DNA of 51,206 bases, counting the filler, from Basidiobolus ranarum (Eukaryota): assembly GCA_040143965.1 (NCBI GenBank). It is 3 parts of 3 records of this genome, joined end to end, with 100 filler letters (N's around TTAATTAATTAA, not from the genome) between each part and the next. Parts side by side here need not be neighbours in the genome. Positions count along the whole stretch, not along the records: positions 1 to 17,018 come from JASJQH010007193.1; 2 more parts are not named here. One strand, 5' to 3'. Positions 12,728 through 15,719 of the stretch are shown here, one piece after another; the stretch's first letter is position 1; each line of letters opens with the position of its first letter. Below the pieces are notes generated by a model. It was not told the DNA's origin, searched no databases, and saw only the letters and a list, made by a program, of their open reading frames with translations. The translations under genes and the position numbers were made by a program.

Positions 12728-15719
12728 ATGTTGTTGAATACCGGTGAGAAATCAGGTCGCGGGATATGGAAACCTCCTGAGACCAAAAGATTAATACAAA
12801 TTCGTAGAGAACTTGACGACCTCTTCTTTTATACGAAAAAGAGAATAGTCGACGAACAGTGGCAGAAGGTGGCAGAGCAGCTACAAACTTCCGGATTCAA
12901 CAGAACTATGTTAGAATGTAAAATAAAGTGGAAAAATTTACTTCAAAAATTCAAGGTATGACTCTCCTACTATCACCCCAAAGAGTATTACCAGACTCTA
13001 TGTGCAGATCTTTAGCCATTCAAAAAAGTTTTGTTGCTTTGCAGCTTTGAGCTCTTTTGGATGCTTCTATTAACTAGTGCCCTTTTAGGAAACCCTTCAG
13101 CCCGGCTACAACGGCCCTTCCTTTTCATTTAGTGAGGACATGCAATGGTATGCTGCAAGGTTATCCAGGGAAGGGAAGGAGGAGAGTGCAGAAAGTCCCA
13201 CGAGGGAGAGCAAAAGACAGTCGTCACCATTGGGTGAAAGCTCTCATCCTTCTCAGGCTACTCGTGCTTCACTACCATTAATTGAATCTCGAGATGCTAA
13301 TTCTCCCCGCGCCTCTCACAAAAATGTTACTCATACACCACAGGGACAGAGTGAGCCTACACACACCGACGTCGATATAAAAAGTGTGCATTCAGCATAC
13401 ATGCCTATATCTTATCGTGAGCCAGCAGGATCAACCGATCCCCTACCAGTAGAACCCTCAACACTTCATTACTCCAGCCAGCCAACCGGATCTAGATCCC
13501 CTTCATTTTATGGCCATCACTATCCTACAGTTTCCTCTCCAATCCCAATGTCCAAAAGGCTTAAACCCACAAGATATGAAGAGGTTTGTACTGTTAGTTA
13601 CTTACGTATCCGCAGTCCTGAATTTTACCATTTTGATACATCGATCTTAATCGAAACACATCCATACGTATTGTGCCAACGTTATGCTACCCTCCAAAAA
13701 TATTTTGTGGCTTATGTTGGGCTTCGAAAGAGATATTTTTGTAGTAAACTATGTGATTTACTTTGGCATGATTTATGCATGAAAACTGATGGTTTCATTA
13801 TATTTCATGACAATGATAATAGTTTCTTCGACTTCATTTCCTACCTACACGCCATATTCTAACTATCCAATGATTTTTTGCCTGTAATTTGTAGTTCGAG
13901 CCACTTCTGTCTTCGGTTCGTTACGATCCTTTAGAAGTTCAAAGAATTAACGAAATGCTTGAAAATGACGAACGTGTTAAAGTTGCAGGAATCGACATAG
14001 ATGGCATATTACGCGAGAAAGTCATGGCCAAGTCCAAATTTTTGTCTATGTTGTATGAGGGTTTCGGTGAGAAAAGCGAGTTTTCTTCTTCGTTCAGGGA
14101 AAGTATAACTAACTTTGTTGAATAGGTTTCAGTGGATCCATCTTTGGTTGGGGTGAACGAGAGGCATCTTCTTTAGGCTCGGAGTTTGAAGGTTTATATT
14201 CTTTGCTGCTTCTTTCTTTGGATTCTCCCTTTCCTTAACCTTTAGTGGTTTTTTTACTTTTCAAAGCATACAGTTATCTCGTGGCAAAAGTGGATTTAGG
14301 AACTTTTCGGAGGATCCCATGGGAAGAGAGTCTTCCTTTCTTTCTAGTGAAGTTCTTCACTAAAGAGGGACAGCCTGTAGGTGTCTGTCCTCGTCACATG
14401 TTAGGGAGAATCATCCATGAGTATCATTCCATGGGGTTTGAGCCCTTATGTGGTGTAGAATACGAGTGGTATAACTATAAAGGTAACTTGTCTCTATTCT
14501 TCCATCGACTATGTCCATTTTTTCTTATTCCTTTCTGAAATCACATGTGAATAGAAACTCCGTTCACTCTGCGAGAAAAAAACTTCAAATCCGAGCCACT
14601 TACTTCGGATTTATTCAATTTGGCATTGGAGGACTCCCAAGGAAAGCGAGCCTATTTCAATGAACTATTTCAAATGTTACAGAAATTCGATTGTCCCTTA
14701 GAGAGTCTATGTACTGAAGTTGGTAAATACATCAACTATTGTAATGCATGAACGATTGCAACATGGAATCCTTACTGGTAGTTTCGTATTCTTTATTTCG
14801 ATAAATTAGGGCCAGGTCTTTATCAAGGCGCACTTCAATATGGATCTGCATTGGCAATGGGCGATCGTGCGCAGCTTTTCAAAGTTGCTGTGAAACAGAT
14901 AGGCTTACGTCAAGGAATAATGGCCTCGTTTATGGCGAAACCACATGAAAATATACCCGGATGCTCAGCGCGATTACATTTCTCCTTGAAGGATATCAGA
15001 TCAGCAAAGAATATTTTCTCTAGGCGTAATGAAGTGGGAATGAGAGAGCCACCACGAGACGGCTTAGAAGATATGAGCCAAGTGATGAGTTGGTTTGTTG
15101 CAGGATTATTGCGTGGTCTTCCAAGCATATTGGCCATTTTAGCGCCATATGTGAACAGGTAATTATACGTGACTTTTCGCCATTTGGAGTATATTTTAAC
15201 AATCTTTCGCTGTTAAGTTACAAGAGACTTAGGGAAAACGATTGGTCACCAATGATCGTTTCTTGGGGACATGATAGTAGAAATAGTGCCATCCGAATCA
15301 TCAGCTCTCAAGTCAATGCCGAGTCTACTAGATTGGAAGTGGTATGCAAAGGATTTTATGAACCTCCTTGTAGAGCGTCTTACTCAACTTTTTTCATGTA
15401 GCGAGTGCCTGGAGCCGACATGAATCCACATTTAGCTCTTGCCGCCTTACTTGCTTGTGGTATGTGGGGAATCAAAAACAAACTTCCCATCCCTGTCCCG
15501 CCTAGCGTTGGTGGTATTGCTAGTGACTCAAGAGCCGAGAGATTCCCAAAGTCACTACTGGAAGCCACGCAAAAAATGCTCGAGCGTGGAAGTGTGGCCC
15601 GAGAGGTCCTTGGAGATGAGTTTGTAGATCATTACGGAAGCACCCGACTTCATGAATGGAAACAGTGGGAGCGGGCCATCACAGACTGGGAAAGCAAACG
15701 ATATTTTGAAATGGTGTAA
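12728..15719 (+). CDS. Predicted 711-aa fusion: N-terminal trihelix/Myb-SANT-like DNA-binding domain, S/P-rich linker, C-terminal type I glutamine-synthetase-like (gamma-glutamyl ligase fold) domain with degenerate active site
   Basis: Nine GT-AG exons total 2136 nt in frame: 12728-12955, 13089-13583, 13895-14066, 14126-14191, 14267-14482, 14555-14722, 14810-15158, 15218-15341, 15402-15719. Trihelix signature WKPPETKRLIQIR..WQKVAEQL..GFNRTMLECKIKWKNL..FSEDM. GS-like motifs VKVAGIDIDGILR, FRRIPWE, GVEYEW, FMAKP, NSYKRL, RLEVRVPGADMNP. The domain identities are more certain than the fusion. Confidence 0.78.

What the first reader, a model, noticed from the sequence alone, without database searches (positions are those of the whole stretch)
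12728..15719. Trihelix (Myb/SANT-like) DNA-binding domain fused to a glutamine-synthetase-like domain: candidate one-component metabolite-sensing transcription factor
Seen: a GT-1/trihelix-type domain (exons 1-2), a roughly 140-aa S/P-rich linker with a KRLK NLS-like patch, then a complete GS-fold domain. They are joined by a phase-0 intron (gag|gtttgt at 13584, CTAAC branch point at 13859, tttgtag| at 13894) into a stop-free 711-aa product. Known: GSI-like domains fuse to amidohydrolases (FluG, NodGS), and Bacillus GS controls TnrA/GlnR in trans. I do not know of a described DNA-binding-domain plus GS fusion. Inference: the GS domain acts as a ligand-sensing or oligomerising module that couples glutamate, amine or nucleotide status to DNA binding. 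Caveat: this intron (311 nt) is longer than most here, and exon 3 has an internal Met that could start a separate gene.
Basis: partly seen in the sequence, partly recalled or inferred. Interest (0 to 1): 0.88.

Follow-up and report, generated by a model that had tools for sequence, protein, structure and literature searches.

The report
Trihelix DNA-binding domain fused to degenerate glutamine-synthetase fold
A Basidiobolus-type fungal gene appears to join a plant-like trihelix DNA-binding domain to a complete glutamine-synthetase fold that has lost key metal-binding residues, which suggests an enzyme turned into a regulatory module, although no RNA evidence yet shows that the two halves are made as one protein.

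Summary
A nine-exon, all GT-AG model (12728-15719, +) gives a stop-free 711-aa protein. It has a GT-1-type trihelix domain (Pfam PF13837, 3e-14), a disordered S/P-rich linker with a KRLK patch, and a complete type-I GS fold.

The DNA is Basidiobolus-like. Three public gene models cover related loci. Two cross the same EE|FEPLL junction (P0002, P0003). The locus closest to the window is annotated as two genes (P0001 and P0004).

No RNA data could be reached. Indirect evidence favours one gene:
- Exon 3 opens right after a stop codon.
- Its first 20 codons are 20/20 and 18/20 identical to the relatives and encode the first helix of the GS fold.
- P0002 and P0003 have no usable start codon there.

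New here: two of the six canonical GS metal ligands are replaced in all four Basidiobolus copies (E to Q, H to R) and a third in three of them. They are kept in 215-218 of 221 homologues. No such fusion was seen outside Basidiobolus.

Best reading: a lineage-specific DNA-binding protein carrying a GS-derived pseudoenzyme module. Interest is moderately high, and the splice is unproven.

The parts
12728..12955 (+). Exon 1 (76 codons): start codon and most of the GT-1-type trihelix (Myb_DNA-bind_4) domain. The three signature Trp are W14 (12767-12769), W45 (12860-12862) and W68 (12929-12931).
   Evidence: Pfam PF13837 3e-14. phmmer of the 93%-identical P0001 hits Arabidopsis GT-1 structures 2jmw and 2ebi at 9e-9 and 2e-8, with the three W aligned. 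Coordinates.
12956..13088 (+). Intron 1, 133 nt, GTATGA...TTTTAG, phase 0.
   Evidence: The junction KFK|ETLQ matches P0001 and P0002.
13089..13583 (+). Exon 2 (165 codons): the end of the trihelix domain (to about residue 95), then the S/P-rich linker. The linker ends in the conserved patch VSSPIPMSKRLKPTRYEE, with KRLK at 13554-13565.
   Evidence: On P0002 the Pfam domain runs 13-95. In the AF2 model of P0003 the linker has pLDDT below 50. The last 20 residues are 17-19 of 20 identical to P0002, P0003 and P0001 (hand count on the alignment), against 61-74% for the whole linker.
13584..13894 (+). Intron 2, the disputed junction: 311 nt, GTTTGT donor, CTAAC at 13859-13863, TTTGTAG acceptor, phase 0. 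It stays open in the exon-2 frame for 92 codons, up to TAA at 13860-13862.
   Evidence: GC is 0.338, against 0.31-0.39 for the other introns and 0.38-0.50 for exons. 49 of 20000 shuffles are as open.
13895..14066 (+). Exon 3: 10 conserved residues (FEPLLSSVRY), then the first helix and first strands of the GS beta-grasp N-domain. The internal Met262 is at 13955-13957. An in-frame TAG (13892-13894) lies directly upstream.
14126..14482 (+). Exons 4 (14126-14191) and 5 (14267-14482), separated by intron 4: the rest of the N-domain and the start of the catalytic domain. Y324 (14275-14277) replaces a 95%-conserved Asp. E385 and E387 (14458-14466) are the ExE metal ligands.
14555..15158 (+). Exons 6 (14555-14722) and 7 (14810-15158): the catalytic core. 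E447 is kept. Q454 (14824-14826) stands where 215 of 221 homologues have Glu. R503 (14971-14973) stands where 217 of 221 have His. H505 is kept.
   Evidence: Pfam Gln-synt_C 1e-17 on exon 7. Column counts. Coordinates.
15218..15719 (+). Exons 8 (15218-15341) and 9 (15402-15719, including the TAA stop): C-terminal half of the catalytic domain. R568, R586, R591, R603, E605 and R607 are all kept.
   Evidence: Pfam 5e-7 and 2.5e-21..

Best explanation
This is one Basidiobolus-lineage gene whose 711-aa product has three parts:
1. An N-terminal GT-1-type trihelix DNA-binding domain (about residues 13-95).
2. A disordered S/P-rich linker of about 145 aa. It ends in a strongly conserved basic patch (KRLK) that runs without a break into the next exon.
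3. A complete type-I glutamine-synthetase fold (about residues 253-711).

The GS part descends vertically from a stand-alone fungal GS-family ligase. Its two-metal catalytic centre has been remodelled. Of the six canonical ligands, the E220 equivalent is Gln and the H269 equivalent is Arg in all four known copies. The E129 equivalent is Lys in three copies, while the window keeps Glu. The glutamate- and nucleotide-contacting Arg and His residues are retained.

The most likely working:
- The trihelix domain binds DNA in the nucleus.
- The GS-derived module no longer acts as a canonical ATP-dependent ligase.
- Instead it supplies ring-type oligomerisation, so several DNA-binding domains sit on one particle.
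- It probably also supplies a pocket that still binds a nucleotide or a glutamate-like ligand, coupling nitrogen or amine status to DNA binding.

Shown: the domains, the open spliced frame, the fold, the ligand substitutions, and the restriction to Basidiobolus in the searches made.
Inferred: that the splice is used, nuclear location, oligomerisation, loss of catalysis, and ligand control.
For: Architecture:
- All 8 introns are GT-AG and the product is a stop-free 711 aa, 565 identities over 714 alignment columns to the deposited fused model P0002.
- Pfam finds both domains. The trihelix part hits GT-1 structures at 9e-9.
- The AF2 model of P0003 has mean pLDDT 77.8. Residues 1-29 and 31-150 (the linker) are below 50, and 364 residues are at 90 or above. 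Foldseek gives target-normalised TM-scores of 0.87-0.91 to most listed GS-I chains and 0.79-0.81 to the 1-naphthylamine GS chains, over about 467-503 columns.

One gene rather than two:
- P0002 (714 aa) and P0003 (620 aa, starting inside exon 2) both cross EE|FEPLL.
- The exon-3 frame opens immediately after an in-frame TAG and has no ATG before codon 21.
- Yet those 20 codons are 20/20 identical to P0003 and 18/20 to P0002 (hand count). The linker is only 61-64% identical to those two proteins.
- These codons include the first helix of the fold (P0003 H162-171, block pLDDT 95). That helix ends at the window's Met262.
- P0002 and P0003 have no Met there. Their first Met after the junction is M288 and M202 (counted by hand). 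In P0003 that lies beyond the 90%-or-more conserved D184, G187, R190 and K192.
- Of 206 Met-starting homologues, 193 have 12 or more residues upstream of the VKVAG column (median 20). Only 10 have 7 or fewer, which is what a Met262 start would leave.
- None of five common AT-rich poly(A)/TATA-type hexamers occurs in 13500-13960.
- Neighbouring spacers are 0.6-1.3 kb.

Degenerate enzyme:
- 38 columns are at least 90% conserved in 221 homologues. 34 are kept in all four Basidiobolus copies.
- The four changed columns are D324Y (4 of 4), E385K (3 of 4), E454Q (4 of 4) and H503R (4 of 4).
- Ten stand-alone homologues used as controls differ at 0-2 such columns.
- The six ligands E129, E131, E212, E220, H269 and E357 are given as conserved in GS-I and in gamma-glutamyl-amine ligases in a passage of PMC6529630.
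- P0004 scores far below every NCBIfam cut-off.
- The GS parts are still 83-91% identical to one another, so they are under constraint.

Restricted distribution:
- Only P0002 carries PF13837 plus PF00120 among the 120 proteins listed.
- Only P0003 reaches upstream of query residue 226 among the best 150 of 7619 hits.
Against: - No RNA evidence of any kind was available.
- The relative closest to the window (93%, 74% and 91% identity in the three parts) is annotated as two genes: P0001, ending EE+ILFKVHT*, and P0004, starting MNEILKND.
- The window has an in-frame Met at 13955.
- Ten formal ATG...GT mini first exons exist inside intron 2.
- Intron 2 is 2.3 to 5.3 times longer than the other seven.
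- Intron 2 is unexpectedly open in frame. That could mean intron retention, or a stand-alone 333-aa Myb protein.
- The agreeing gene models are predictions and may share the same bias.
- The window keeps 4 of 6 metal ligands. Gln and Arg at the other two do not prove that all chemistry is lost.
- No ligand, DNA target, localisation or oligomeric state was measured.
Confidence: 0.55

Rival explanations
1. There are two adjacent same-strand genes that gene predictors sometimes merge. One is a small trihelix protein: exons 1-2, ending in or just after the 'intron', up to 333 aa if read through to TAA 13860. The other is a separate GS-family protein translated from Met262 (13955) or from a short unrecognised first exon. 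The two may still work together.
For: - The most similar locus in B. meristosporus is deposited as two proteins, P0001 (251 aa) and P0004 (460 aa), on contigs of the same listed length.
- The window and P0004 each have a Met near the start of the GS part, and P0002 and P0003 do not.
- Intron 2 is the longest intron. It stays open in frame for 92 codons, matched by 49 of 20000 shuffles.
- Ten formal alternative first exons exist.
- All other fungi seen have stand-alone GS-family proteins.
Against: - A start at Met262 removes the conserved first helix. It leaves 7 residues before VKVAG, where 193 of 206 homologues have 12 or more.
- The 20 codons upstream of Met262 are 20/20 and 18/20 identical to relatives although no start codon precedes them.
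- P0002 and P0003 lack any usable Met.
- Only 92 nt would separate the read-through stop from the ATG, while local spacers are 0.6-1.3 kb.
- The read-through peptide has no Pfam match and is not open in P0001.
Confidence: 0.22
2. The fusion is real, but the GS part is still an active amide-forming ligase, for example a gamma-glutamyl-amine synthetase with altered metal use. The trihelix domain tethers it to chromatin or simply autoregulates its own pathway, as in bifunctional enzyme-repressors.
For: - 34 of 38 highly conserved columns are kept, including E387, E447, E605, H505 and all conserved Arg.
- The window keeps E385.
- The fold is complete.
- The domain is strongly constrained, at 83-91% identity between copies.
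Against: The E220 and H269 equivalents are each one ligand of the two metal sites. They are Glu in 215 of 221 and His in 217 of 221 homologues, including proven gamma-glutamyl-amine ligases. All four copies replace both, and three also replace the E129 equivalent with Lys.
Confidence: 0.12
3. The locus makes both forms by regulated splicing. Removing intron 2 gives the 711-aa fusion. Retaining it gives a 333-aa protein with the DNA-binding domain only, which could compete with the fusion at the same sites.
For: - The exon-2 frame runs 92 codons into intron 2 before the first stop, which lies inside the branch-point motif. Only 49 of 20000 shuffles match this, and frame 2 of the same intron has 14 stops.
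- A deposited relative (P0001) is a DNA-binding-domain-only model that reads a few codons past the same exon end.
Against: - P0001 reads only 7 codons past EE, so the openness is not conserved.
- The read-through peptide looks like translated AT-rich DNA and has no family match.
- A p-value of about 0.002 can be chance in a gene with 8 introns.
Confidence: 0.1

Closest known systems
Basidiobolus meristosporus CBS 931.73 predicted protein P0002 (714 aa, deposited as 'glutamine synthetase/guanido kinase'), and B. ranarum P0003 (620 aa)
   Same: Same architecture and the same EE|FEPLL junction. P0002 shares 565 identities over 714 alignment columns with the window's product. Both carry the same Q and R substitutions at the metal-ligand columns.
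   Different: These are paralogous or orthologous copies in other genomes. P0002 and P0003 lack the Met near the GS start and have Lys at the E385 column. P0003's model omits exon 1. Neither carries a functional description.
Stand-alone fungal and Bacteroidota GS-family proteins of about 450-540 aa (e.g. Neoconidiobolus thromboides P0012, Podila P0006, Maribacter P0033)
   Same: Same full-length GS-I fold and subfamily. They are 42-47% identical to the GS part. Neoconidiobolus is sister to the Basidiobolus clade in my tree, which was built without support values.
   Different: They have no DNA-binding domain or linker. The metal ligands are intact: E 218/221, E 215/221 and H 217/221 at the three changed columns.
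Bacillus-type GS with TnrA/GlnR (recalled; GS-GlnR peptide complexes 7tfa, 7tf6 and 7tf9 appear)
   Same: The state of a GS-I oligomer is coupled to DNA binding by a transcription factor.
   Different: There the coupling is in trans, the factors are MerR-type, and the GS is a working enzyme. Here a trihelix domain is on the same chain and the GS centre is degenerate.
MocR/GabR-type regulators, and enzyme-repressors such as PutA, BirA and NadR (recalled from general knowledge; not tested here)
   Same: A DNA-binding domain joined by a long linker to an enzyme-fold domain that serves as effector-binding and oligomerisation module.
   Different: Those are bacterial, use winged-helix or RHH domains, and have aminotransferase or other folds. 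None uses a GS fold.
FluG, NodGS and lengsin (recalled), the GS-I-like domains recruited to non-GS roles
   Same: A GS-I-like domain is kept for a role other than glutamine synthesis. Lengsin is regarded as catalytically inactive.
   Different: FluG and NodGS carry an amidohydrolase partner domain, and none was found here. None of them carries a DNA-binding domain.
Arabidopsis GT-1 trihelix DNA-binding domain (PDB 2jmw, 2ebi)
   Same: Best solved match to the N-terminal domain, at E 9e-9 over residues 13-79 with the three Trp aligned.
   Different: Plant GT factors carry no enzyme-fold domain.

Membership tests
Trihelix / Myb_DNA-bind_4 (PF13837) | Match to the family profile above the curated cut-off | tested here: met
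   Exon 1 alone scores 53.6 bits against a cut-off of 27. P0002 scores 54.3 bits over residues 13-95, profile 3-87 of 89.
Trihelix / Myb_DNA-bind_4 (PF13837) | Three regularly spaced Trp, one per helix | tested here: met
   W14, W45 and W68 align with the three W of GT-1 in the phmmer alignment of P0001.
Trihelix / Myb_DNA-bind_4 (PF13837) | Sequence-specific DNA binding | not testable with these tools
   Needs EMSA or DAP-seq.
Type-I glutamine synthetase fold (Gln-synt_C plus beta-grasp N-domain) | Full-length profile match and full-length fold | tested here: met
   Gln-synt_C profile 2-344 of 344 on P0002, P0003 and P0004, and on window exons 5 and 7-9 piecewise. The AF2 model of P0003 gives TM 0.87-0.91 to most listed GS-I chains and 0.79-0.81 to the 1-naphthylamine GS chains.
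Catalytically competent GS / gamma-glutamyl-amine ligase | Six metal ligands (E129, E131, E212, E220, H269, E357 in S. typhimurium numbering; passage of PMC6529630) | tested here: not met
   The window has E, E, E, Q, R, E. P0002, P0003 and P0004 have K, E, E, Q, R, E. In 221 homologues the six columns carry the canonical residue in 215-219 sequences each. Assignment to S. typhimurium numbers is by motif order, not by direct alignment to that protein.
Catalytically competent GS / gamma-glutamyl-amine ligase | Membership of a named equivalog (GlnA, type III GS, gamma-glutamylputrescine synthetase) | tested here: not met
   P0004 scores 186 against 429, 187 against 470 and 158 against 650 bits. 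The window's own spliced product could not be submitted.
Catalytically competent GS / gamma-glutamyl-amine ligase | ATP-dependent ligase activity | not testable with these tools
   Needs an enzyme assay.
FluG / NodGS | Amidohydrolase domain N-terminal to the GS-like domain | tested here: not met
   No amidohydrolase match on any exon or on P0002.
One-component regulator with an enzyme-derived sensor domain | DNA-binding domain and enzyme-fold domain on one polypeptide | tested here: inconclusive
   The spliced frame is open and 2 of 3 related gene models are fused. No transcript evidence was available, and the closest locus is split.
One-component regulator with an enzyme-derived sensor domain | Ligand-dependent DNA binding | not testable with these tools
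   Needs binding assays.

The most novel reading that the evidence does not exclude
Basidiobolus has collapsed the 'GS talks to a transcription factor' circuit into one polypeptide. A ring-forming, catalytically dead GS reads glutamate, glutamine, nucleotide or amine status. It displays six to twelve trihelix domains on DNA. Retention of the unusually open intron 2 yields a protein with only the DNA-binding domain, which acts as an antagonist. This would be the first eukaryotic one-component nitrogen sensor built on a GS pseudoenzyme.
Probability: 0.15. Interest if true: 0.85.

Novelty: new variant of a known kind. Interest (0 to 1): 0.62.

Why it matters
Enzyme folds reused as sensor or scaffold modules of transcription factors are well known in bacteria and rare in eukaryotes. 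GS is the classic example of an enzyme that signals to transcription factors, but only in trans. A natural cis fusion would give a simple system for asking three questions: what a GS fold can sense once it stops catalysing, how a ring oligomer shapes DNA binding, and how gene fusion and active-site decay follow each other in evolution. Here the enzyme centre has decayed while the rest of the fold stays under strong constraint. If the splice is not used, the result still matters on a smaller scale: a conserved gene pair of a trihelix protein and a degenerate GS, and a caution about merged gene models.

Tried and rejected
- Own genome: none is held.
- Earlier notes of this scan: none by place or by sequence.
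- Related DNA: a metagenome scan with P0001 matched 48 patterns, and none was confirmed. No eukaryotic genome collection is available, so I could not read the DNA of the B. meristosporus or B. ranarum loci. That ruled out any synonymous/non-synonymous test and any check of the donor site at the P0001 locus.
- A search with P0001 at similar lengths found only P0001 itself.
- Complex prediction with P0004 plus P0001 residues 1-244 returned 'no answer' (score 0.00, controls not run). I draw nothing from it.
- Pfam on the read-through peptide of intron 2: no match.
- Literature: 'Basidiobolus' plus 'glutamine synthetase' gave 3 papers (listing only), none about this protein by title or abstract. 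'glutamine synthetase-like' plus 'pseudoenzyme' gave 0. 'Myb_DNA-bind_4' plus 'Gln-synt_C' gave 0.
- Recent horizontal transfer of the GS part was considered and rejected. It has 6 introns within it, and it groups with Neoconidiobolus inside a fungal clade.
- A U12-type AT-AC intron at the P0001 locus was considered, but it cannot be judged without the DNA.
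Full report
**What is there**

The region is eukaryotic, about 40% GC, with short GT-AG introns. Starting at ATG 12728 I built a nine-exon model by homology and splice-site reading. The exons are:

| Exon | Coordinates |
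|---|---|
| 1 | 12728-12955 |
| 2 | 13089-13583 |
| 3 | 13895-14066 |
| 4 | 14126-14191 |
| 5 | 14267-14482 |
| 6 | 14555-14722 |
| 7 | 14810-15158 |
| 8 | 15218-15341 |
| 9 | 15402-15719 |

All eight introns are GT-AG, with lengths 133, 311, 59, 75, 72, 87, 59 and 60 nt. The CDS is 2136 nt and the product is 711 aa without a stop.

**Domains**

- Exon 1 alone matches Pfam Myb_DNA-bind_4 at 3e-14. Exons 7, 8 and 9 match Gln-synt_C at 1e-17, 5e-7 and 2.5e-21.
- On the close relative P0002 the two domains cover residues 13-95 (profile 3-87 of 89) and 363-710 (profile 2-344 of 344).
- The best solved relative of the N-terminal domain is the Arabidopsis GT-1 trihelix domain (2jmw at 9e-9, 2ebi at 2e-8). 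All three signature Trp align.
- An AF2 model of the relative P0003 (87-sequence alignment, mean pLDDT 77.8) has a disordered linker: residues 1-29 and 31-150 are below pLDDT 50. It has a confident GS fold, with 364 residues at 90 or above.
- Foldseek gives target-normalised TM-scores of 0.87-0.91 to most listed GS-I chains and 0.79-0.81 to the 1-naphthylamine GS chains, over about 467-503 columns. So the beta-grasp N-domain is present as well.
- The linker (residues 101-240) has 27 S and 18 P of 140. KRLK is residues 232-235.

**Whose DNA, and how relatives are annotated**

The trihelix exon finds only two longer proteins in 5.8 billion, both from Basidiobolus meristosporus CBS 931.73:
- P0001: 251 aa, trihelix only.
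- P0002: 714 aa, PF13837 plus PF00120.

The GS part of P0002 finds two more Basidiobolus proteins:
- P0003 from B. ranarum: 620 aa.
- P0004 from B. meristosporus: 460 aa, listed with the same longest-contig length (181022 bp) as P0001.

How each model treats the junction:
- P0002 crosses ...RYDE|FEPLL...
- P0003 starts at a Met inside exon 2 and crosses ...RYEE|FEPLL...
- P0001 ends ...RFEE+ILFKVHT*.
- P0004 starts MNEILKND.

The window is closest to the split pair. Identity over the trihelix, linker and GS parts:

| Compared with | Trihelix | Linker | GS |
|---|---|---|---|
| P0001/P0004 | 93% | 74% | 91% |
| P0002 | 87% | 61% | 83% |
| P0003 | not covered | 64% | 86% |

So two of three related models are fused, and the nearest one is not.

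**One gene or two**

No RNA data could be reached and no genome is held, so the argument is indirect.

For one gene:
1. The exon-3 frame opens directly after an in-frame TAG (13892-13894). It has no ATG until codon 21, Met262 at 13955.
2. Those first 20 codons are 20/20 identical to P0003 and 18/20 to P0002 (hand count). The linker is only 61-64% identical to those two proteins. So they are constrained as coding sequence and need an upstream exon.
3. They include the first helix of the GS fold (P0003 H162-171, block pLDDT 95). That helix ends at the window's Met262.
4. Among 206 Met-starting homologues, 193 have at least 12 residues before the VKVAG column (median 20). Only 10 have 7 or fewer, which is what a Met262 start would leave.
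5. P0002 and P0003 have no Met at that place. Their first Met after the junction is M288 and M202 (hand count). In P0003 that lies past the near-invariant D184, G187, R190 and K192.
6. Conservation runs without a drop across the junction. The last 20 residues of exon 2 are 17-19 of 20 identical to the three relatives (hand count).
7. None of five AT-rich poly(A)/TATA-type hexamers occurs in 13500-13960. Flanking spacers are 0.6-1.3 kb.

Against one gene:
- The nearest locus is annotated as split.
- Both the window and P0004 have a Met near the GS start.
- Ten formal ATG...GT mini first exons exist inside intron 2.
- Intron 2 is the longest intron.
- Intron 2 stays open in the exon-2 frame for 92 codons, matched by 49 of 20000 shuffles. 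The peptide it would encode has no Pfam match, and P0001 reads only 7 codons past EE.

I put the fusion at roughly 0.7-0.75.

**The GS part is not an ordinary enzyme**

I aligned the four Basidiobolus copies with 221 homologues of 420-560 aa, taken from the 268 proteins fetched. Shorter and longer ones were left out.

- 38 columns are at least 90% conserved. 34 are kept in all four Basidiobolus copies.
- The four exceptions are D324Y (4 of 4), E385K (3 of 4, with the window keeping Glu), E454Q (4 of 4) and H503R (4 of 4).
- In the homologues these columns are D 209/221, E 218/221, E 215/221 and H 217/221.
- Ten stand-alone homologues tested the same way differ at 0-2 columns.
- By motif order (ExE; E...GxxE; HxH; NSYKR; RxExR), columns 385, 387, 447, 454, 503 and 605 are E129, E131, E212, E220, H269 and E357 of S. 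typhimurium GS. A passage of PMC6529630 gives these six as the metal ligands conserved in GS-I and in gamma-glutamyl-amine ligases.
- The glutamate and nucleotide contacts named there (R321, R359, H271, R344) correspond to R568, R607, H505 and R591, which are kept.
- P0004 is far below the NCBIfam cut-offs for GlnA, type III GS and gamma-glutamylputrescine synthetase.
- The GS parts are nevertheless 83-91% identical to one another.

This is the pattern of a constrained fold with a remodelled metal centre. It points to a pseudoenzyme, or at least to a strongly altered enzyme.

**Origin and distribution**

Other fungi carry stand-alone proteins of this subfamily at 42-47% identity. They include Mortierellomycota, Glomeromycota, Mucoromycota, Neoconidiobolus, Ramicandelaber, a chytrid, Rhodotorula and Puccinia. 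Bacteroidota carry them too.

In a FastTree tree of 37 sequences the Basidiobolus copies form one clade, sister to Neoconidiobolus, inside the fungal group. I chose the named hits. No support values were printed, and the root was placed on three distant bacterial sequences.

The Q, R and Y substitutions are shared by all four copies, so they predate the duplication.

No other protein combines the two domains in the searches made:
- 1 of the 120 proteins listed does so (P0002).
- In the exhaustive phmmer search, only P0003 among the best 150 of 7619 hits reaches upstream of query residue 226.

A distant fusion ranked below the top 150 cannot be excluded.

**Mechanism proposed**

- Shown: a trihelix domain, a disordered linker with a conserved basic patch, and a complete GS-I fold with a degenerate metal centre, all on one open spliced frame.
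- Inferred from family knowledge (recalled): GS-I folds form rings of six or twelve subunits. A fusion would therefore display several DNA-binding domains, and the retained Arg and His contacts could still hold a nucleotide or a glutamate-like ligand.
- The nearest working analogies are the Bacillus GS-TnrA/GlnR circuit and MocR/GabR-type regulators, which join a DNA-binding domain to an enzyme-fold effector domain. The first acts in trans, and GS-GlnR peptide structures are listed. These are likenesses of logic, not of family.

**Literature**

I found no paper on this architecture. Of I saw only the listing. Of PMC6529630 and PMC7466969 I read the passages returned by 'find'. The latter shows that RNA-seq of B. 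meristosporus CBS 931.73 exists. Its supplementary tables were not available to me.

**Verdict**

The decisive gap is transcript evidence across 13583/13895.

Noticed in passing
window 13584-13862: Intron 2 continues the exon-2 reading frame for 92 codons. The first in-frame stop (TAA 13860-13862) sits inside the CTAAC branch-point motif. 49 of 20000 shuffles are as open, and frame 2 of the same stretch has 14 stops. The peptide has no Pfam match.
   Followed up: partly
P0001 / P0004 (B. meristosporus; both listed with longest contig 181022 bp): The locus most similar to the window is deposited as two genes. P0001 reads EE+ILFKVHT*. Its first codon after EE starts with A, not the G of a GT donor. 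P0004 begins with a Met where other copies have Ile or Val. This may be a secondary fission or only a modelling choice. The DNA could not be read.
   Followed up: partly
window 14458-14460: The window keeps Glu at the E129-equivalent ligand column, where the three other Basidiobolus copies have Lys. Decay of the metal site is therefore not uniform among copies.
   Followed up: yes
window 27290-32104 (-): An uninterrupted 1604-codon open frame with only a weak coiled-coil type match (Pfam Filament, 4e-10). It lies in a stretch with strong negative AT skew on the + strand (-0.2 to -0.26).
   Followed up: partly
window 3042-4658 (+), 22184-22744 (+), 24112-24795 (-), 35441-35851 (-), 47931-48866 (-), 49178-51205 (-): The neighbours are ordinary housekeeping genes by Pfam: PP2C phosphatase, ferritin, RhoGAP, CDC73 N-terminal, Saf4/Yju2, and an SMC protein running off the window end. 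There is no nitrogen-metabolism cluster around the finding.
   Followed up: partly
P0123 (4424 aa) and P0162 (2757 aa): Two very long library proteins match the GS part in 7 and 3 separate stretches. They may be tandem GS-like repeats or merged gene models. Not examined.
   Followed up: no
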